NCBI GenBank assembly: GCA_963722655.1
Contig: CAVRNT010000001.1
Span: 244,994-308,993 of the forward strand
Direction: 5' to 3'
Length of the DNA: 64,000 bases
From: an uncultured bacterium
GTDB taxonomy: Bacteria; Patescibacteriota; Minisyncoccia; UBA6257; GWB1-50-10
Both the position numbers and the translations under genes were made by a program. Under the pieces are notes generated by a model. It was not told where the DNA came from. It was given only the letters and a program-made list of their open reading frames with translations, and did not search any database. How positions within the stretch are numbered: the first letter of the stretch is position 1; every line of letters starts with the position of its first letter. This document shows, piece after piece, positions 7,963 to 15,275 of the stretch.

Positions 7963-8034
7963 TCCCCGGTAGCTCAGTGGTAGAGCGGCGCTCTGTTAAA
8001 GCGATGGTCGTAGGTTCGAATCCTACCCGGGGAG
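7963..8034 (+). tRNA. tRNA-Asn (anticodon GTT)
   Basis: Cloverleaf TCCCCGG-TA-GCTC-AGTGGTA-GAGC-G-GCGCT-CTGTTAA-AGCGA-TGGTC-GTAGG-TTCGAAT-CCTAC-CCGGGGA-G; anticodon GTT is flanked by U33 and A37. Confidence 0.85.
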
Positions 8035-9618
8035 CATTACTGGATTTCGGGCATACAAATGCCCGATTTTCTTTTTATTCGCGTGCTTTTTAGCAGGTTC
8101 TAACCCTGCGGATATTTCTTGCGCTTCTTTTGCCGCAGTTTGTATCGGGAACAGCAGATTATCCAAAGAAACACTCAATTTTTTGTCTTTTAGGGTGAGG
8201 TCCGAACCTAACGCCATAAAAATCCCTTTTTTCACTTCCATATCCTTCGTGGTAGCGAATATCTGCCGGGCCTTCTCTGCGAAGTTAAGGCCGCGCTCAG
8301 CAATTTCAAGCCAGTTCTCAACGCGCTTATCCGTATCTTTAAGCAGTTCCTGAAGCCGCTCTTTCTCCGCGAGTATTGTTTCCTTCTTGCTTTTGAACTC
8401 GTCCTCGGTAATCTCGCCGTTGGCACGCATATCAATCAAATTGTCTCCTCTACGTACGCACGCCTCGTATTCACGCCTCTGGTTGCCGTAAATGCGCTCC
8501 CGGTCCTCAACCTCCTTCTCGTTCATCTGCCGCAATCGCGCCATCGCCCACTCCTTGAAATCGGTTGGGATTTCAAGCTTGGCAAGCTCGGCGGTAATCT
8601 GCTTTTCAAGCTCGTCCTTCTCTATGGCCTGTTGCGTGCAATTCGGGTCCCTGCGTTTGGTGCAGTGATAGTAGGTGTAGTGATGCACATTGCCGTTTTT
8701 CTGGTGCTTCATTTTTTCCTCGGCGGTAATCATCGCACCGCACTCGCCGCAATGTATCGGCCCGCGATATACGATGTCGCGCTTTTGCCCTCGCGGTTGC
8801 GAACGCCTGCCGAGCAGAAACTGTATCCGGTCATACTCCTCTCGCGTAATCATCGGCTTGTGTATGCCCTTATGCCATTCTCCGCTTCCCACCGGATATT
8901 CAAACTCCCCGTAATAGAATGGGCGGGTTAGAAGCAGATAGATATTACTTCTGCTAAAAGGTTTGCCGTTAGGCATACGAAGGCCCCAATCTTTCGTTGC
9001 TATCTCCAAAATGCGCGGCGGCGTGTATTTACCAGTAAGCATCAGGTCAAATATCTTCCGCACAATATCAAAACGCTCCGGGTCTTCGTGAATGGTTTTG
9101 TATCCTTTCTCCCCGTATTTATCGTTCAAGTAGCCAACGGGAGCCGGTGCAGGATAAATGCCCATACGCGCCTTCTGCCCTAGTCCGCGTTTCACATCGC
9201 GTCCTTTCTTTGCGCTCTCGTATTGCGATTGTGAGAGCGCCATTTGAAGCATCCAAATACCCTCGGGTGTGTTCTCAAAGTGATAGGTTGCGAGCTTGAG
9301 GTCTTCTATAACCCCAGTGCGTATCATATAGGTAATTTCGCCAGCGTCTTTCTCGTTGCGCGAGAGACGGTCTGGATGCCACGCAACCAATCCGGTCCGC
9401 TCGCCGCTTTTTATCCGTTCAAGCATATCCGCGAACGCGGGGCGATTGAACGGCTTGAACGCGCTCGCCTTATCTTCCACAAACTCAACGTCCAATTTTC
9501 CGAACACTTCATTGAGCTTGTCTTTCTGCGCGGGGATGGACAACGCTTGTCTCTCCTCGCCCTCGGTGGATTTTCTTACATACGCGAAGTATTTAATTTT
9601 ATTTGTGTCTTTACTCAT
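8023..9618 (-). CDS. large serine recombinase (serine integrase)
   Basis: MSKDTNKIKYFAYVRKSTEGEE gives the catalytic Ser in a resolvase-type N-domain, followed by a recombinase domain and a Cys-rich zinc ribbon (HCGECGA...YYHCTKRRDPNC) and a coiled-coil; about 531 aa; stop overlaps tRNA-Asn. Confidence 0.85.
   Translation of the reverse strand: MSKDTNKIKYFAYVRKSTEGEERQALSIPAQKDKLNEVFGKLDVEFVEDKASAFKPFNRPAFADMLERIKSGERTGLVAWHPDRLSRNEKDAGEITYMIRTGVIEDLKLATYHFENTPEGIWMLQMALSQSQYESAKKGRDVKRGLGQKARMGIYPAPAPVGYLNDKYGEKGYKTIHEDPERFDIVRKIFDLMLTGKYTPPRILEIATKDWGLRMPNGKPFSRSNIYLLLTRPFYYGEFEYPVGSGEWHKGIHKPMITREEYDRIQFLLGRRSQPRGQKRDIVYRGPIHCGECGAMITAEEKMKHQKNGNVHHYTYYHCTKRRDPNCTQQAIEKDELEKQITAELAKLEIPTDFKEWAMARLRQMNEKEVEDRERIYGNQRREYEACVRRGDNLIDMRANGEITEDEFKSKKETILAEKERLQELLKDTDKRVENWLEIAERGLNFAEKARQIFATTKDMEVKKGIFMALGSDLTLKDKKLSVSLDNLLFPIQTAAKEAQEISAGLEPAKKHANKKKIGHLYARNPVMLPG
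8045..8077 (+). terminator. tRNA-Asn terminator hairpin encoded inside the recombinase 3' coding region
   Basis: TCGGGCATacaaATGCCCGA followed by ttttcttttt. Confidence 0.55.
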
Positions 9619-9771: not shown

Positions 9772-10959
9772 TTATACGCCGTTTTCCAATGAATCCAAGT
9801 TAATGGGCTCAAACCGCTTAAATGCCTCATCAATAAAGGCGATGGTATTGGAATATGGCAACCCGTGCGTAAGCTCGGCAGAGGCCTCAATTTTGCGCGT
9901 TAGGCGCTCGCTGTGGTCCGTATTCCATACGCTGAATATGGCTCTGCGCGTCTCCTTCGCTCCGTGGTCTTGTATGGTCCGCGCCAATCCGTAAGAAGTC
10001 AGCGCCCGGTTCATACTATGCGCCTCGCCGCCGAGCTTCTTCGCCTGTGAAAATATGTGCAAGAGCAATGCTAAGTCATCAGTGGGGCCAAGAAGCGCGA
10101 GCTGGTTTTCCGGCCGCCGGATAAGCCCGTGCCAAGAATTAAGTATTATTGTTTTGCAAAGGTTTGGGGTGAAAAGGTCTTTGAAAGCAATAAATGTTTT
10201 TGGATTTCTCCCCAGTGCGGCATTTATCTCGCGCATCACCGTCTGCCCCTTTTTAAGCCGGTATTCATACCGAAACACCTCTTGTTTCTGCAATCCAAAG
10301 CGTTCAATTATGGCTCGTTCGTAATCAATGCGCCCCTTATCTTTGCGTTTTATTTTCGGGCGCATAGCATCCGCAATTTTGTCGTAAAAAACCCGTTCAA
10401 CTGTGCCCGAGTAGATATGAAGCACCCGCCCGTTTTTGAACTCAACTTTTGTAATGTCCACTACCTTGCTTATATCCACGCGCTGGAGTTCCGCCAGTGC
10501 CTCCTGCATTCGTATGTCTCGTGGCAGTGGCACGTTCTTGCAGAAATGGACCGCCGAGACATAGGCACTAGCCACTATATTGCTCTCAATCGCTATACCA
10601 ACGCTATTTAGCGCTTCTTTGAAAGCGTAAAGCACCTTATCAAAATCAAGTTCGGACACCTCCTGCAAGCTGTTTCTATTAAGCAGTTTCGGTACCGAGA
10701 ACTCGGCCTTGAGGATATACCGCACGGCATCGCGGCTTTCGGTAAGCGCCTCAAGAACTTCTACTCTCGGCCGGTAGCCGTTCTGATAAGGCGGCTTCAA
10801 GATAAAACGCCGGAGGTAGGGATGGGTAGATTGCTGGGATTGTTTTTCGGTCTGCGAAAGCTGAAAATAATTACGTTTTGAGAACTCGGGTAGAAACCAC
10901 GATAGCTCCGTAATTTGAAACTTATCCGCTCCGTAGATTTTGATAATGACCGTATCCAT
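9772..10959 (-). CDS. hypothetical protein with Rep_trans-like motifs (rolling-circle replication initiator / MobT-type relaxase family, tentative)
   Basis: 395 aa; segments ...GRVLHIYSGTVERVFYDKI... and ...EVFRYEYRLKKGQ... resemble the Rep_trans motifs (YxGsr..lRiYdK and wRvEiElk); lies next to the integrase as in IMEs/ICEs. Confidence 0.45.
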   Translation of the reverse strand: MDTVIIKIYGADKFQITELSWFLPEFSKRNYFQLSQTEKQSQQSTHPYLRRFILKPPYQNGYRPRVEVLEALTESRDAVRYILKAEFSVPKLLNRNSLQEVSELDFDKVLYAFKEALNSVGIAIESNIVASAYVSAVHFCKNVPLPRDIRMQEALAELQRVDISKVVDITKVEFKNGRVLHIYSGTVERVFYDKIADAMRPKIKRKDKGRIDYERAIIERFGLQKQEVFRYEYRLKKGQTVMREINAALGRNPKTFIAFKDLFTPNLCKTIILNSWHGLIRRPENQLALLGPTDDLALLLHIFSQAKKLGGEAHSMNRALTSYGLARTIQDHGAKETRRAIFSVWNTDHSERLTRKIEASAELTHGLPYSNTIAFIDEAFKRFEPINLDSLENGV

Positions 10960-11065
10960 AGTCGTTTTTAATGTTGTCGGTGTTTTTCAAGGAATCCGCT
11001 CCGTAGATTTTGATAATGACCGTATCCATAGTCGTTTTTAATGTTGTCGGTGTTTTTCAAGGAAT
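10924..11065. repeat. perfect 70-bp tandem duplication (2 copies) covering the start and upstream of the Rep_trans-like gene and the 3' end of the 70-aa ORF
   Basis: 10926-10995 and 10996-11065 are identical (ccgctccgtagattttgataatgaccgtatccatagtcgtttttaatgttgtcggtgtttttcaaggaat). Confidence 0.95.
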
Positions 11066-11250
11066 CCTTTAGTGGTTGGCGCAGGATTTTGCGCGTTTTT
11101 TTGTTCGCTTGCGACTGCACGGCTTACCACTTCAACCAAACGGATAAGCCGCAAGCCCTTTTCAAGTGCCTGCTCCTTGGTTATCTCAACCCCAAAATGC
11201 TTTTTATAAAGCATCTGGAACTCGGAAATGTTTTTGTCGGTAAGGTCCAT
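11038..11250 (-). CDS. small hypothetical protein (70 aa)
   Basis: ORF MDLTDKNISEFQMLYKKHFGVEITKEQALEKGLRLIRLVE...; predicted helical and possibly DNA-binding; its C-terminus lies in the tandem repeat. Confidence 0.4.
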   Translation of the reverse strand: MDLTDKNISEFQMLYKKHFGVEITKEQALEKGLRLIRLVEVVSRAVASEQKNAQNPAPTTKGFLEKHRQH

Positions 11251-11367
11251 AGTTATTCGCTGTTCATTGCGTCCCTACCCTATATGCTGAAAAATCAGCG
11301 AAATAAAAAAACGTTGTAATAACGGGGGTTCTTGGATACGCTGGAAAGAAAAAAGCCTTCTGATTTT

Positions 11368-13275
11368 TCAGAGGGCTTCTTCCTCATCATCTTCCTCACC
11401 GCCTTCAATCGCCTCATTTTCATTAAACCTACCACCTTGAGGCCAGATTTCTTCTTTTCTTAAAACTGGTTCCGGTAATATGGCGAACTTTGGTTTATAG
11501 CGGTCGTGTATATCGTGGAATGGTTCATCGTTAGTTTTGAAAATCTCCTTTAACCACTTCACGAGTAATTTTTTCGCTTGCTGGACATTGTTCACAGATA
11601 AGGTTTTGTTTTTTGTAATCATTGGACGCATATTTTCTGCTGATGCATATTTGAAATCACTTGCCGATAGCGTGGATAAGGCACATAGAAAACCCCATTG
11701 CCGGTCTGGCTTCTGCTGGCGCTTACCGACAAAAAAACGAAGTTGAATGTAATCGGCAGTTATGATGTGGCTATTGTCATAAAAAATCTCAATCTCTTGC
11801 CGCCCTTCTTTTATCTTGAGTGTAACTTTCTCCCATTGGACCGGCTCTGGGAATGACAGCTCAATTGGCGACTCTCGCTTTTTACTCTTTGCATTAGGAG
11901 CTTCTCCTACAAATCTGACCGGCACTTCTGGCATAGCTGTGATTTCAATTTTCTGCACCGTTTGTTGAATCTGCTGGTTGTTTGGAGCAAAAGACATATT
12001 TTTGAGGCTCCTAACAATTGCTTCATCAAGTGCATCAATAATTTTTTTGCTTTTACCTTGCCATTTTTCTTCTGCCGAAATATCAATCAAATCCTTCTTC
12101 TCGCTACCGGCGACTCTCGTTGCGTTTGCAATACGCTCAATAAGCTTGGAGCTCTTCTTCATCTCTTTACTTATCTCTGTAGCGTCTGGTTTCAACGCAG
12201 ATATTTTGAGAAGAAATGCGCTTACGAGGTCTGAAGGACTTTCCGCTTTTTTTGCCTTCGCTTCAATATGAGCTGTTGCAAGTGAAGTAAATGGTCGCGC
12301 ATAGGTTTCTTTAAGGGGGTCAAGCTTGCCCCATTCTACCATCTCCTCAACTTTTCCAATGATTTCAAGATATAACCCCTCAAGCTCTTTATGGTCCAAA
12401 GCTTTATTATTTTCGTACGCGTTTACCAAAATAATCAATTGGCTCCAAAACACCCACAATCGCGCTATATCTTTAGGAGACCACACTTTATATGCCACCA
12501 GTTCAACATCTTTGCCATCCGAATCCGTCCACTCGTTAATCCCCAAATCCAACGCTTCTTCTGTGGGACCTATGTATAGTTTCCCATCTTTAATTTGTAT
12601 GCGGTCATATTTTAGCCATCCGTTATATTTCTCCTGCGTTTCTTTAGCTTTTGTCTCATCTCCCTCAAAAAATAATGGATGGACGGCTTCTTCAATGACT
12701 TTATATAAGGCCCGGCGGACCTTCTGGTTTGATGAGGTGTTTAACACTCGGAAAGCGCTGAAAAGCATCCTCCACTTGGTGTTTGGATACACAATAATCG
12801 TTGCTGGAGCACCACGCTCTTTAAGCAAATCAATAAGCTCTGGCCCAGTTTTGCGCTCGGCAATGTCTTTTGCAATAAGTTCAAGTGTTTGTGCGCGGAT
12901 TACCCCATCGTTATTCCTATCACTCAATAACTTCTTTATTTTCCCTCTGTCTGAAATGCGCAGATATGTCTTCAGAGGATGGACAGTTTCTATACCGCCG
13001 CTTTTGACAATTTCAACTTCAACCTTCATCCCCGGTCCCTTTTGCTCGGAGATTTTGATGCCACCCATATTTTCCAAGAAACGCCAGAATGAATTATTGT
13101 TTATCAGCGTCTCGGTGCTTTGGGGCTCGCCGGGGAAATGATTGATTATACTTACCTCGGTATCGGTTTCATCAGCCCAAGTTTTTTCGGCAATATCAAT
13201 AAGGCTTTCCAGATAGCGGAATATCTGGGGCGTAAAATCAAAGGGAAGTTTTTCTTTATCGTAGTAGAAGGCCAT
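11368..13275 (-). CDS. large hypothetical protein (about 635 aa), no recognisable domain, acidic C-terminal tail
   Basis: Long uninterrupted ORF in an AT-rich island (unlikely to be spurious at this GC); ATG at 13275 or TTG at 13320; ends ...EGGEEDDEEEAL; divergent from the Type III mod. Confidence 0.55.
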   Translation of the reverse strand: MAFYYDKEKLPFDFTPQIFRYLESLIDIAEKTWADETDTEVSIINHFPGEPQSTETLINNNSFWRFLENMGGIKISEQKGPGMKVEVEIVKSGGIETVHPLKTYLRISDRGKIKKLLSDRNNDGVIRAQTLELIAKDIAERKTGPELIDLLKERGAPATIIVYPNTKWRMLFSAFRVLNTSSNQKVRRALYKVIEEAVHPLFFEGDETKAKETQEKYNGWLKYDRIQIKDGKLYIGPTEEALDLGINEWTDSDGKDVELVAYKVWSPKDIARLWVFWSQLIILVNAYENNKALDHKELEGLYLEIIGKVEEMVEWGKLDPLKETYARPFTSLATAHIEAKAKKAESPSDLVSAFLLKISALKPDATEISKEMKKSSKLIERIANATRVAGSEKKDLIDISAEEKWQGKSKKIIDALDEAIVRSLKNMSFAPNNQQIQQTVQKIEITAMPEVPVRFVGEAPNAKSKKRESPIELSFPEPVQWEKVTLKIKEGRQEIEIFYDNSHIITADYIQLRFFVGKRQQKPDRQWGFLCALSTLSASDFKYASAENMRPMITKNKTLSVNNVQQAKKLLVKWLKEIFKTNDEPFHDIHDRYKPKFAILPEPVLRKEEIWPQGGRFNENEAIEGGEEDDEEEAL

Positions 13276-13399
13276 TGTAATTATTAACTTCAATCTACTG
13301 CTTTTTGCTGATTTTCTCAACGATTTTATGCTAAACTGAAATTACAACTAAATATGCGATAGAGGCCTAACCCCCGTGAGCAAAACTCCGAGGTATGGC

Positions 13400-13545
13400 A
13401 CACATAAGCCCCATCCCTGATACTAAACTCCGCGTTTAGCAACTCAGGGATGGGCTATGTCTCCGAAAGGAGGTGTAGGGCCGAAAGGTCTAGCTAGCGC
13501 GGAGTTTCGTGCTTCTCGCTAGCGACATAGCAACCCATCCCTCTA
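13400..13545 (+). promoter_or_regulatory. structured leader / operator region upstream of the Type III mod gene
   Basis: 11-bp stem CCCATCCCTGA/TCAGGGATGGG with a nested hairpin CTAAACtccgcGTTTAG; second hairpin GCTAGCG...CGCTAGC; AAACTCCGCG and CGCGGAGTTT are mutually complementary; CCCATCCCT occurs three times; strong AAGGAGGTG SD; 21-codon uORF 13457-13522. Confidence 0.4.
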
Positions 13546-15272
13546 TGTCCAAAAAATTAAAATCACAATCAACCATTCCGGCTGTAGCCGCTAAGCCGAA
13601 ATACGACAACTGGTCCAAAGAGCAACTTATTGACGAGGTGGCACGGCTTCGCAAGCGCAAGAAATACGGGCTTGTCTGGGAAGAAAAGCTAGAAAATGTC
13701 GTTGAGCAATGCAAGACAGAATTGCCGGTGCTCAAAGAAGTGAAAAATAAAGCGATTGCGAAAGATAAAAATGGCCCTGTGAACATTCTCATTGAGGGAG
13801 ACAATTACCACGCCTTATCGGTTTTGAATTACACCCACAAAGGCAAGATTGATGTCATCTACATTGACCCGCCATATAATACCGGCGCGCGTGATTGGAA
13901 ATACAACAACGATTATGTGGACGTTAACGACCAGTGGCGACATAGCAAATGGATTTTAATGATGGAGCATAGGTTACAACTGACAAAAAAACTTCTATCT
14001 CAAAACGGATTCATTATATGTGCAATTGACCATAACGAACTTTTCGCGCTTGGTCTTTTGATGGATGAGATTTTTGGTGAAAGTAATAGGTTGGGAACGA
14101 TTACAGTTGTGCACAAGCCAGAAGGAAGACAGTTCGCTAATTTCTTTAGTCCGTCAAATGAGTTTATGTTGGTGTATGCCAAAAATAGAACTTCGGCACA
14201 ATTTGAGAACATCGTTTTAAGTAAAGAGAAGGCGGATGAGTTTGACCTAGTAGATGAGAAGGGAAAGTACAAACTTCAGAACTTCATAAGATTGACTGAT
14301 GGTAAATATAGTTTGCGGAAAAATAAACCCGAGGGATATTACCCCATTTATGTAAGTAATGACTTAGCACATTTCAGTTTAACTAAAAAGAAGGGATACG
14401 ATGAAACACTGCCCATCACGAACAAGGGCGTGGAAAGAGTTTGGAAAACTTTTGGAGATACTTTTATGGATAAGGTAGGCAATGAGGCAATCGTGGCAAA
14501 AAGAGAAAACGGGAAAATAGTATTATACGAAAAATTAAGGCCGAGTGAAGTTCTGGTTACGCATTGGATTAAGAAACAGTATCACGGGTATCACTTTGGC
14601 ACGAAGTTATTAGAAACGATTTTAGGCAAAAAGTTGTTTGATTTCCCCAAATCTCTTTACTTGGTTCTAGATATTTTGAAACTTACCACAAGAAGAAACG
14701 CTATAATTTTAGATTTTTTCGCTGGCTCTGGCACTACTGGGCACGCTGTCCTTGAATTGAATAAGGAGGACGGTGGTAATCGCCGGTTTATTCTCTGCAC
14801 GAACAACGAAAATAACATCGCCACAGAAGTTTGTTATCCACGCGTAGCAAAAGTAATTGATGGATATAAAGATGCGGCGGGGAAAACAATTGCTGGTATC
14901 AAAAGCAATCTCAAATACTTCCGCACGGCATTTGTGGGCGCAGAGCCGAATGACAAAAACAAAGAAGCCCTAACTAAGAAGGCAACTGAAATGCTTTGTA
15001 TGCGCGAGGACACTTTTGAGTCGGTAAAAGAAACGGGTGCGGTAAAGATATTCAAAAACTCAAAACAGCATACCGGCATTATCTTTGATGAGGATGCTAT
15101 CCCTGCGTTAAAAAAAGAAATTGTGAAGATTGACGGCGCGTGGAGCATCTATATCTTCTCTCTTGGCGATGACACTTTTGAGGACGAGTTTGAGGATATG
15201 AAACAAAAGATAACCGTTGCGCCGATACCCGAGGCGATTTTGCGGGTCTACCGGCGCATATTCAAACCATAA
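13509..15272 (+). CDS. mod: Type III restriction-modification system methyltransferase (Mod), N6-adenine DNA methylase
   Basis: IYIDPPYNTG (DPPY motif IV), FAGSGTTG (motif I), ILIEGDNYHAL N-terminal motif typical of Type III Mod / Type IIG methylases; GTG start at 13509 (GGAG SD) or ATG at 13545. Confidence 0.8.
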   Translation: MLLASDIATHPSMSKKLKSQSTIPAVAAKPKYDNWSKEQLIDEVARLRKRKKYGLVWEEKLENVVEQCKTELPVLKEVKNKAIAKDKNGPVNILIEGDNYHALSVLNYTHKGKIDVIYIDPPYNTGARDWKYNNDYVDVNDQWRHSKWILMMEHRLQLTKKLLSQNGFIICAIDHNELFALGLLMDEIFGESNRLGTITVVHKPEGRQFANFFSPSNEFMLVYAKNRTSAQFENIVLSKEKADEFDLVDEKGKYKLQNFIRLTDGKYSLRKNKPEGYYPIYVSNDLAHFSLTKKKGYDETLPITNKGVERVWKTFGDTFMDKVGNEAIVAKRENGKIVLYEKLRPSEVLVTHWIKKQYHGYHFGTKLLETILGKKLFDFPKSLYLVLDILKLTTRRNAIILDFFAGSGTTGHAVLELNKEDGGNRRFILCTNNENNIATEVCYPRVAKVIDGYKDAAGKTIAGIKSNLKYFRTAFVGAEPNDKNKEALTKKATEMLCMREDTFESVKETGAVKIFKNSKQHTGIIFDEDAIPALKKEIVKIDGAWSIYIFSLGDDTFEDEFEDMKQKITVAPIPEAILRVYRRIFKP

Positions 15273-15275
15273 AAT

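What the first reader, a model, noticed from the sequence alone, without database searches (positions are those of the whole stretch)
11038..13320. Uncharacterised 635-aa and 70-aa proteins divergent from the Type III R-M: candidate novel defence or element-maintenance module
The 635-aa ORF is AT-rich (so long ORFs here are not GC artefacts). It has no Walker, HEPN, nuclease or methylase motif I can recognise and ends in a strongly acidic tail (EGGEEDDEEEAL). The 70-aa ORF sits directly downstream, and both share a strand with the Rep_trans-like gene and the integrase. The block is placed next to an R-M system and a TA module, the typical context of defence-island genes. No known family could be assigned by eye.
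Basis: inference. Interest (0 to 1): 0.7.

Follow-up and report, generated by a model that had tools for sequence, protein, structure and literature searches.

The report
Backbone genes of a mobile island
The two unknown proteins are real, but they are conserved core genes of a small mobile DNA island, common in ultra-small (CPR) bacteria, that carries restriction-modification systems as swappable cargo; the large one most likely binds DNA, and neither looks like a new defence weapon.

Summary
Both ORFs are real: 635 aa (11368-13275, -) and 70 aa (11038-11250, -). They lie in a 44.5% GC island (host 58%) inserted at tRNA-Asn.

The 635-aa protein belongs to a large uncharacterised family (2,857 clusters at 50% identity), almost all from Patescibacteria/CPR. 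In 15 distinct loci the order is the same: variable cargo, then the big protein, DUF5659, the 70-aa protein, a replication module and a large serine recombinase. The recombinase abuts a tRNA in 10 of them. The first cargo gene belongs to an R-M system in 9 of 15 (Type III, I or II-like) and is unrelated in the others. So the pair is island backbone, not defence cargo.

Best reading: a DNA-binding regulator of the island, plus a small accessory protein that could be a recombination directionality factor.

The window copy has a clean deletion of DUF5659 and a 70-nt tandem duplication.

Unexpectedly, the orphan Rfam motif LOOT RNA lies between the big gene and mod. It looks like a cis-acting 5' leader whose hairpin arm is copied just before the methylase start codon.

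Interest is moderate.

The parts
7963..8035 (+). tRNA-Asn(GTT); insertion site of the island. Its 3' end is overlapped by the end of the recombinase gene.
   Evidence: ARAGORN and Rfam. The same recombinase-end/tRNA overlap or abutment is seen in 10 related loci.
8023..9618 (-). Large serine recombinase (531 aa from the ATG). It is the last gene of the backbone operon.
   Evidence: Pfam Resolvase 2e-19, Recombinase 8e-10, Zn_ribbon_recom 1e-8. It is 88% identical to the L002 recombinase.
9772..10959 (-). 395-aa protein, putative rolling-circle replication initiator.
   Evidence: The window protein has no Pfam hit. It has 260 homologues at 57-79% identity. One carries a precomputed PF05144 annotation, and 2 of 30 hit Phage_CRI/G2P at 8.7e-6. 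In other loci it is replaced by a 532-aa + 164-aa pair or by an HTH_17 protein + tyrosine integrase.
10907..11046 (.). Tandem 70-nt duplication (62 nt identical) spanning the stop of the 70-aa gene and the start of the 395-aa gene.
   Evidence: the repeat finder family D1; visible in the sequence. It is absent from the closest relative L002. An independent Logan contig ends exactly here.
11038..11250 (-). 70-aa protein. It has a conserved helical N-terminal ~45 residues (consensus LSDEQIxKFQxLYKxxFGKEISxEEAxExGxxLxRL) and a variable tail.
   Evidence: It is syntenic in 12 of 15 loci and aligned in A8. No Pfam, PHROG or PDB match.
11251..11290 (-). Scar of a ~310-bp deletion that removed the DUF5659 gene. 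Only its last codons (..ACAGCGAATAA) remain, directly before the 70-aa start.
   Evidence: Alignment with L002. No DUF5659 homologue anywhere in the window.
11368..13275 (-). 635-aa protein, first gene of the backbone operon. The model shows an N-terminal alpha/beta domain (residues 1-110), a helical core (118-388), a disordered linker (389-470), a winged-helix C-terminal domain and an acidic tail.
   Evidence: Homologues; alignment A1; AlphaFold model with mean pLDDT 70.5.
12112..12924 (-). Conserved helical core (residues 118-388) with the motifs TLELIA, YPNTKWR, HPLxFxGD and PFxxLxxAE. It shows remote, sub-threshold AbiJ_NTD3 similarity.
11464..11871 (-). C-terminal domain (residues ~469-604) with a predicted OmpR/PhoB-type winged-helix DNA-binding fold.
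11371..11406 (-). Acidic C-terminal tail EGGEEDDEEEAL. An acidic tail is conserved across the family.
13276..13363 (.). Divergent promoter region between the 635-aa gene and LOOT.
   Evidence: A sigma-70-like site TTGAGA-17-TAGATT lies on the minus strand at 13320-13292. An A/T-rich -10-like hexamer lies just 5' of LOOT in all nine loci. These are consensus matches only.
13364..13491 (+). LOOT RNA (Rfam RF03000), transcribed away from the 635-aa gene towards mod.
   Evidence: cmscan 56.4 bits against a gathering score of 46.4, full length. It occupies the same position in 8 other loci of the family.
13492..13544 (+). Leader extension up to the mod start codon. It contains a hairpin (13493-13523) and a copy (13534-13542, CCCATCCCT) of the 5' arm of the long LOOT hairpin (13410-13418). 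The 3' arm is at 13446-13454.
13545..17513 (+). Type III R-M cargo: Mod (13545-15272) and Res (15276-17513).
   Evidence: Pfam N6_N4_Mtase 2e-31 and ResIII 2e-20. PADLOC MTase_III 7e-81 and REase_III 3e-15.
17562..18461 (+). Toxin-antitoxin-like cargo: a SocA_Panacea protein (17562-18038) and a 135-aa partner (18054-18461).
   Evidence: Pfam SocA_Panacea 3e-25. The partner hits PADLOC NsnC at 8e-8 and NCBIfam MAG6450_fam at 34 bits, below its 40-bit cut-off.

Best explanation
The two genes are core (backbone) genes of a roughly 12-kb genomic island. The island is integrated at tRNA-Asn by a large serine recombinase and belongs to a family that is widespread in Patescibacteria/CPR bacteria.

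The backbone operon reads: 635-aa protein, then DUF5659 (deleted here), then the 70-aa protein, then a replication protein, then the recombinase. Cargo sits on the other side of a divergent promoter. Here the cargo is Type III R-M plus a Panacea toxin-antitoxin pair.

Shown: the synteny, the variable cargo, and a confident predicted winged-helix fold at the C-terminus.

Inferred: the 635-aa protein is the island's DNA-binding regulator. Its OmpR/PhoB-like C-terminal domain would bind island DNA, most plausibly the divergent promoter region. Its N-terminal and AbiJ-NTD3-like helical parts would act as a sensing or oligomerisation module, and the acidic tail could mask the DNA-binding face. In this way it would control the excision/replication operon that it heads.

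More speculative: the 70-aa protein is a small helical partner, and the best guess is a recombination directionality factor for the serine recombinase.

My sub-confidences are: backbone membership 0.9; DNA binding 0.65; transcriptional regulator of the island 0.4; the 70-aa protein as directionality factor 0.2.
For: Synteny. The order big protein / DUF5659 / 70-aa / replication module / recombinase is conserved in 15 distinct loci, even where the big proteins share only ~25% identity.

Insertion site. The recombinase abuts or overlaps a tRNA in 10 loci.

Cargo. The divergent neighbour varies: Type III R-M in 7 loci, Type I in 1, an MTase-Mrr fusion in 1, and an Hsp70-like pair or unrelated genes in 5.

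Composition. The island is a low-GC patch in the window.

Position near the promoter. Proteins that carry this C-terminal domain behind a different N-terminus also sit next to the same intergenic RNA (L029, L057, L086, L116).

Evolutionary rate. Between the window and L002 the big protein is 57% identical, against 77% for the replication protein and 88% for the recombinase. Faster change is what one expects of a specificity-determining regulator.

Directionality factors of serine recombinases are small and structurally diverse, so lack of homology for the 70-aa protein is not evidence against that role (PMC12286644).

Against: No operator, binding site or target promoter was identified.

At 635 aa, with an unexplained 390-residue N-terminal part, the protein is large for a simple repressor.

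Nothing ties the 70-aa protein physically to the recombinase, and three loci lack it (L007, L013, L014).

No excised circular form was found, and no att repeat was found at the far end of the island.
Confidence: 0.5

Rival explanations
1. Defence or abortive-infection sensor. The helical core would be an AbiJ-NTD3-type sensor of invading phage, and the protein would cooperate with, or back up, the neighbouring R-M system, for example by switching on a response when restriction fails.
For: AbiJ_NTD3 is the only recurrent Pfam family among relatives: 4 of 23 and 17 of 102, best E 5.3e-6, always over the HPLxxxGD region. AbiJ-NTD3 is described as a putative sensor fused to HEPN, TIR, REase, kinase and ABC effectors (PMC3710099). 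The first divergent cargo gene belongs to an R-M system in 9 of 15 loci. The protein evolves fast.
Against: All AbiJ_NTD3 hits are below the 32.5-bit gathering score, and the window protein has none. There is no HEPN or other effector domain; the C-terminus is a winged helix. There is no PADLOC hit. The protein stays with DUF5659 and the recombinase when the neighbour is not a defence system (L004, L011, L014, L019).
Confidence: 0.15
2. Replication or segregation protein of the excised island. The winged helix would bind the origin or a centromere-like site and recruit the replication protein or host machinery, as in plasmid RepA-type initiators, DnaD or ScpB.
Against: The top-ranked and most numerous hits are OmpR/PhoB-type regulators, which share the extra N-terminal beta-sheet. 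The gene persists in L005/L006, where no recognisable replication gene is present and a tyrosine integrase sits in that slot. No iterons or repeats were found near the gene.
Confidence: 0.2
3. Structural or transfer protein of a virus-like or satellite element, for example a capsid, adsorption or DNA-delivery protein of a small ssDNA element with a gpII-like replication protein.
For: Relatives of the 395-aa protein weakly resemble the replication protein G2P of filamentous phages. The protein is large and its N-terminal part has no known fold.
Against: There is no structural match in BFVD (best E 0.14). No close relatives of either protein were found in IMG/VR contigs. No PHROG hit. No morphogenesis or packaging genes occur in any locus. 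No circular contigs were found.
Confidence: 0.05

Closest known systems
tRNA-targeting integrative (mobilizable) genomic islands with a large serine recombinase and a rolling-circle-type replication protein, which carry defence cargo. SCCmec-like and IME-type islands are examples.
   Same: A large serine recombinase sits at one end against a tRNA gene. The backbone operon is compact. A variable cargo slot is filled mostly with R-M and toxin-antitoxin genes. The composition is foreign to the host.
   Different: The other backbone genes (635-aa family, DUF5659, 70-aa family, 395-aa or 532-aa proteins) belong to no described family. There is no relaxase, oriT, excisionase or repressor of a known type. 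The hosts are Patescibacteria/CPR. I found no description in the papers I could search.
OmpR/PhoB-family winged-helix DNA-binding domains (Pfam Trans_reg_C), especially one-component members such as CadC and ToxR.
   Same: The predicted fold and topology of residues ~469-604 match. The domain is placed at one end of a larger sensor-like protein.
   Different: The window protein has no detectable sequence similarity. There is no receiver domain and no membrane segment. The domain is C-terminal, follows a disordered linker and is followed by an acidic tail.
AbiJ-NTD3 domain (Pfam PF18860) of AbiJ-type abortive-infection proteins.
   Same: Weak, recurrent similarity over the HPLxxxGD-containing helices of the core. 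The architecture is the same in outline: an N-terminal sensor-like domain followed by an output domain.
   Different: The scores never reach the family threshold. The output domain is a DNA-binding winged helix and not a HEPN, TIR or nuclease effector. The gene is part of a mobile-element backbone.
LOOT RNA motif (Rfam RF03000; Rfam lists it as 'Gene; sRNA'; my recollection is that it came from the Weinberg et al. 2017 intergenic-region survey, PMC5737381, whose main text does not mention it).
   Same: The window element matches the full model above the gathering score.
   Different: Rfam lists it as a free-standing sRNA. Here, and in 8 related loci, it lies 50-60 nt upstream of the first cargo ORF with no terminator in between. 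One arm of its long hairpin is duplicated right before the start codon. This points to a cis-acting leader.

Membership tests
OmpR/PhoB-type winged helix (Pfam Trans_reg_C, PF00486) | Fold: an N-terminal antiparallel beta-sheet, three helices with the third as recognition helix, and a C-terminal beta-hairpin wing. | tested here: met
OmpR/PhoB-type winged helix (Pfam Trans_reg_C, PF00486) | Sequence match to the family profile at or above its curated score. | tested here: not met
   The window protein has no Pfam hit at E <= 0.1. The domain profile finds no PDB sequence match. Only 2 of 102 relatives hit PF00486, at 5e-5.
OmpR/PhoB-type winged helix (Pfam Trans_reg_C, PF00486) | Sequence-specific DNA binding. 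| not testable with these tools
   This needs EMSA, DAP-seq or ChIP.
AbiJ abortive-infection proteins | AbiJ_NTD3 (PF18860) match above the gathering score of 32.5 bits. | tested here: not met
   The window protein has no hit. The bit scores shown individually for relatives reach 22.6 at most, and the best E-value in the larger set is 5.3e-6. Sub-threshold hits occur in 4 of 23 and 17 of 102 relatives.
AbiJ abortive-infection proteins | C-terminal HEPN (Abi_C) RNase domain. | tested here: not met
   No HEPN or Abi_C hit in the window protein or in the 125 relative entries scanned. The C-terminus is a winged helix.
Known anti-phage defence systems (PADLOC-DB v2) | Match of either protein to any defence-system model. 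| tested here: not met
   0 families at E <= 0.1 for the 635-aa, 70-aa and 395-aa proteins.
Serine-recombinase integrative genomic island | A large serine recombinase with Resolvase, Recombinase and Zn-ribbon domains at the island edge. | tested here: met
   Present in all 15 related loci.
Serine-recombinase integrative genomic island | Insertion at a defined chromosomal target, with composition foreign to the host. | tested here: met
   tRNA-Asn is overlapped by the recombinase gene end. GC is 44.5% against 58.3%. A tRNA abuts the recombinase in 10 loci.
Serine-recombinase integrative genomic island | Identifiable attL/attR sites and evidence of excision. | tested here: inconclusive
   No copy of the tRNA 3' end at the far boundary and no long direct repeats. 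This is expected for serine recombinases, whose sites share only a short core. No circular contigs were found. The right end (~20.1 kb) is inferred from GC only.
LOOT RNA (Rfam RF03000) | Covariance-model score at or above the gathering threshold over the full model. | tested here: met
   56.4 bits against 46.4, model positions 1-121.
Rep_trans / Phage_CRI rolling-circle initiators (for the neighbouring 395-aa protein) | Profile match to PF02486 or PF05144. | tested here: inconclusive
   The window protein has no hit. 2 of 30 relatives hit PF05144 at 8.7e-6, and one relative carries a precomputed PF05144 annotation. No Rep_trans hit.
Recombination directionality factors of large serine recombinases (for the 70-aa protein) | Binding to the cognate recombinase and stimulation of attL x attR recombination. 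No sequence signature exists. | not testable with these tools
   Only the operon position and small size are consistent. These factors are structurally diverse (PMC12286644).

The most novel reading that the evidence does not exclude
The 635-aa protein, DUF5659 and the 70-aa protein together form a previously unrecognised sensor-regulator module of CPR mobile islands. An AbiJ-NTD3-like sensor fused to a winged helix would read phage attack or host state and switch the island between integrated and excising/replicating states. The LOOT leader would separately gate translation of the incoming methyltransferase, so that an R-M cargo can establish safely in a new host. That would be a dedicated 'R-M delivery vehicle' with its own RNA- and protein-based timing controls, in a bacterial group reported to mostly lack CRISPR-Cas (statement in PMC12455944).
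Probability: 0.12. Interest if true: 0.75.

Novelty: new variant of a known kind. Interest (0 to 1): 0.5.

Why it matters
Mobile elements of Patescibacteria/CPR bacteria are barely charted. These bacteria are reported to rely largely on R-M systems for defence (statement in PMC12455944).

This locus defines a recurrent island family that shuttles R-M systems into tRNA genes. The backbone is a serine recombinase, a replication module, the 70-aa protein, DUF5659 and a large winged-helix protein.

It gives a first functional handle, DNA binding, for a protein family of about 2,900 clusters that has no annotation. It also gives a genomic home and a testable cis-regulatory mechanism to the orphan LOOT RNA motif.

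It does not reveal a new defence mechanism.

Tried and rejected

Sequence-profile searches of the PDB. The whole family, the core, the C-terminal domain and the 70-aa family all gave nothing meaningful.

My third homology search, with a core-domain alignment, was meant to bridge to genuine AbiJ_NTD3 proteins. It returned no scored hits, not even the family itself, so it looks like a tool failure and not a negative result.

Single-protein scans of IMG/VR found no relatives of either the big protein or the 395-aa protein. I therefore rejected the idea that the island is a recognised virus.

I looked for circular contigs and for a tRNA-derived repeat at the far end of the island. Neither was found.

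Was LOOT a specific partner of the 635-aa protein? I rejected this. In a LOOT-first scan only about 9 of 75 loci with enough flank have a family member next to LOOT.

Pfam on the 532-aa and 164-aa alternative module proteins gave no hits.

The host organism could not be named. Exact-sequence look-ups return unnamed singleton clusters.

Literature searches for DUF5659, for LOOT, and for CPR integrative elements with serine recombinases found no description of this element family.
Full report
**1. Observation**

The window carries a low-GC patch from about 8.0 to 20.1 kb. Its GC is 44.5% against 58.3% elsewhere.

On the minus strand of this patch lie four genes:
- a 1,953-nt ORF (11368-13320, 650 aa from TTG; 635 aa from the ATG at 13275);
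- a 70-aa ORF (11038-11250);
- a 395-aa ORF (9772-10959);
- a large serine recombinase (8023-9618) whose 3' end overlaps tRNA-Asn (7963-8035).

On the plus strand, transcribed divergently, lie Type III Mod (13545-15272) and Res (15276-17513), a SocA_Panacea protein and a 135-aa partner.

The acidic tail EGGEEDDEEEAL is present. Neither protein of the finding hits Pfam, PADLOC, PHROGs or NCBIfam.

**2. Both ORFs are real genes**

The 635-aa protein has 40 homologues in the 90%-clustered collection, with full-length matches at 57-58% identity (P0004, P0005). A profile search of 1.84 billion representatives found 2,857 clusters at E <= 1e-3 and 1,143 at E <= 1e-10. Homologues begin at the ATG, not the TTG.

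The 70-aa protein has about 30 distinct homologues among the fetched loci. They share a clear conserved N-terminal 45 residues.

**3. Context decides what they are**

I fetched the contigs of eight homologues and 13 species-representative genome loci and scored their ORFs against the window's proteins. The genome records are almost all Patescibacteria/CPR: Uhrbacteria, Berkelbacteria, Saccharibacteria, Peribacteria, Gracilibacteria and Komeilibacteria.

In 15 distinct loci the order is the same. The big protein comes first. DUF5659 (PF18903) follows in 13 of 15, and the 70-aa protein in 12 of 15. Next comes a replication-type module, and last a large serine recombinase, present in 15 of 15.

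The replication slot varies. It holds the 395-aa protein, or a 532-aa + 164-aa pair, or an HTH_17 protein + tyrosine integrase.

The recombinase abuts or overlaps a tRNA gene in 10 loci.

The order holds even where the big proteins share only ~25% identity (L009).

The divergent neighbour is not constant. It is Type III R-M in 7 loci, Type I R-M in L012, an MTase-Mrr fusion in L013, an Hsp70-like pair in L017, and unrelated or host-like genes in L004, L011, L014 and L019.

The two genes therefore belong to the backbone of a mobile island, and R-M is its commonest cargo. The 'novel defence module' option is not.

**4. The window copy is slightly decayed**

It lacks DUF5659 altogether. Alignment with the closest relative, L002, shows a clean ~310-bp deletion that leaves only the last codons of DUF5659 in front of the 70-aa start. 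Identities to L002 are 57% (big protein), 71% (70-aa), 77% (395-aa) and 88% (recombinase).

A 70-nt tandem duplication (10907-10976 / 10977-11046) repeats the end of the 70-aa gene and the start of the 395-aa gene. An independent Logan contig ends exactly there. This fits a genuine repeat, but an assembly artefact is not excluded.

**5. What the 635-aa protein looks like**

AlphaFold with a 23-sequence alignment gave mean pLDDT 70.5. The model shows:
- an alpha/beta N-terminal domain (residues 1-110);
- a well-modelled helical core (118-388);
- a disordered linker (389-470);
- a C-terminal domain;
- a disordered acidic tail.

The secondary-structure order is that of this fold: a three-stranded sheet, three helices, then a hairpin. 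Two distant family members hit Pfam Trans_reg_C directly.

At sequence level the window protein matches nothing. This is a fold-level assignment on a predicted model.

The invariant residues of the domain lie on the third helix and the hairpin. In domain numbering they are K129, L136, F140, P146, F147 and Y154.

**6. The helical core**

The only Pfam family that recurs among relatives is AbiJ_NTD3. It is hit in 4 of 23 and 17 of 102 members, best E 5.3e-6. The four hits shown in detail all cover the stretch around HPLxxxGD. The hits stay below the 32.5-bit threshold wherever a score was shown, and the window protein has none.

AbiJ-NTD3 was proposed as a sensor domain fused to HEPN, TIR, REase, kinase or ABC effectors (PMC3710099). 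I treat this as a lead, not as membership. My attempt to bridge to genuine AbiJ proteins failed technically.

**7. Mechanism I commit to**

The 635-aa protein is the island's DNA-binding regulator. A sensing or oligomerising N-terminal part is coupled to an OmpR-like winged helix, and an acidic tail may mask the DNA-binding surface. The gene heads the operon that ends in the replication protein and the recombinase, and it faces the cargo promoter. The divergent intergenic region (13276-13363) is therefore the most likely target.

Two observations support this. Proteins with the same C-terminal domain but a different N-terminus also sit beside the same intergenic RNA. The protein also diverges faster than its operon partners.

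All functional steps are inferred. No operator was identified.

The 70-aa protein is a small helical protein with no relatives of known function. Its constant place in a recombinase operon makes a directionality factor the best guess, at low confidence. Such factors are known to be diverse (PMC12286644).

Rival readings are scored separately in the report: a defence sensor, an origin or segregation protein, and a structural protein.

**8. An unexpected neighbour: LOOT RNA**

Rfam's LOOT RNA (RF03000, listed there as an sRNA) matches at 13364-13491 on the plus strand with 56.4 bits against a gathering score of 46.4. This places it between the 635-aa gene and mod.

The same motif lies in the same place and orientation in 8 other loci of the family: L002, L007, L009, L011, L013, L016, L017 and L018. 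It is absent from L003, L004, L005 and L012 even at relaxed thresholds.

In all nine loci an ORF starts within about 30-60 nt of the end of the search pattern, which reaches about 16 nt beyond the Rfam model (54 nt after the model end in the window). No terminator was detected in between in the window, the only locus scanned.

The 5' arm of the long LOOT hairpin (window 13410-13418, CCCATCCCT; 3' arm 13446-13454) is repeated immediately before the start codon (13534-13542; ATG at 13545).

A LOOT-first scan of metagenome contigs returned 120 loci. Among 98 distinct LOOT copies with enough flank, 34 carry a copy of the arm of at least 9 nt downstream, against 4 of 98 in an upstream control. In 32 of these an ATG follows within -3 to +9 nt. 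There are 24 different arm sequences, and 17 of the 32 downstream ORFs carry the xPPY methyltransferase motif.

Pfam on 52 LOOT-downstream ORFs gave DNA methylases as the top class (13 of 52), plus Mrr_cat in 6. The rest were diverse.

In the window the internal arm pairing is favoured by about 9.6 kcal/mol over the pairing of the 3' arm with the start-proximal copy: -78.7 against -69.1 kcal/mol.

My reading is that LOOT, at least in this class, is a cis-acting 5' leader that can occlude or free the start site of the first cargo gene, typically a methyltransferase. This is an inference from covarying repeats, not a demonstrated switch.

LOOT is not specific to the 635-aa family. Only about 9 of 75 LOOT loci with enough flank have a family member next to it.

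**9. Comparison and novelty**

The island is a variant of a known kind: a tRNA-targeting island that is moved by a serine recombinase and carries defence cargo.

Its backbone proteins have no described families. Its hosts are CPR bacteria. I found no paper describing it in the searchable library, though absence there is not proof.

The finding is not a new defence system. It is of moderate interest for three reasons:
- It gives a first handle on a large unannotated family.
- It defines an R-M-carrying island family in CPR.
- It provides a context and a testable mechanism for an orphan RNA motif.

Noticed in passing
window 13364-13545 (+): LOOT RNA (Rfam RF03000) lies between the 635-aa gene and mod. 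The 5' arm of its long hairpin is copied right before the mod start codon. The same design recurs with 24 different arm sequences in 32 of 98 LOOT loci, often before DNA methyltransferase genes. This suggests a cis-acting translational leader and not a trans sRNA.
   Followed up: yes
window 13426-13434 and 13498-13506: The loop of the long LOOT hairpin (AACTCCGCG) is perfectly complementary to a stretch just 3' of the Rfam model (CGCGGAGTT). By eye, matching changes occur in the other loci, so a pseudoknot or a second alternative pairing is possible. I did not test this statistically.
   Followed up: partly
window 10907-11046: A 70-nt tandem duplication (62 nt identical) repeats the stop of the 70-aa gene and the start codon region of the 395-aa gene. 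It creates a decoy start. It is absent in L002, and a Logan contig breaks exactly here.
   Followed up: partly
window 11251-11290 versus L002 5116-5535: A clean ~310-bp deletion removed the DUF5659 gene, which is otherwise present in 13 of 15 related islands. Only its last codons remain.
   Followed up: yes
window 17562-18461 (+): A SocA_Panacea (PanA-type antitoxin) gene is followed by a 135-aa protein that hits PADLOC NsnC and, below its cut-off, NCBIfam MAG6450_fam. This is a likely toxin-antitoxin or defence-associated pair in the cargo.
   Followed up: no
window 18471-20100, including the ORF at 19340-20038 (-): The remaining low-GC cargo holds a 232-aa ORF and short ORFs with no family hits. 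The right end of the island is inferred only from the GC step at about 20.1 kb.
   Followed up: no
L002 8699-8941 and L014 14655-14884: Group I introns (Rfam RF00028) lie directly after the recombinase gene, where other loci have an ordinary tRNA. These may be intron-containing tRNA genes used as insertion sites.
   Followed up: no
L006 24-1398 and L007 1-1600: Reverse transcriptase (RVT_1) genes, in L006 with a weak bAvd-like neighbour, lie just beyond the R-M cargo of two related islands. A diversity-generating retroelement is possible.
   Followed up: no
L017 4455-8584 (-): In one island the cargo slot behind LOOT holds an 830-aa Hsp70-family protein and a 543-aa unknown in place of an R-M system. 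This may be a different defence or conflict system.
   Followed up: no
L009 3671-3877 (-) and L017 450-623 (-): Second, divergent copies of the 70-aa family protein lie at the far (cargo) end of two islands.
   Followed up: no
L034, L069, L080, L101, L113, L121, L131 (LOOT-first loci): An identical LOOT leader followed by the same 375-aa ORF recurs in many metagenome contigs, some over 1 Mb long. This is a widespread near-identical copy of unknown function.
   Followed up: no
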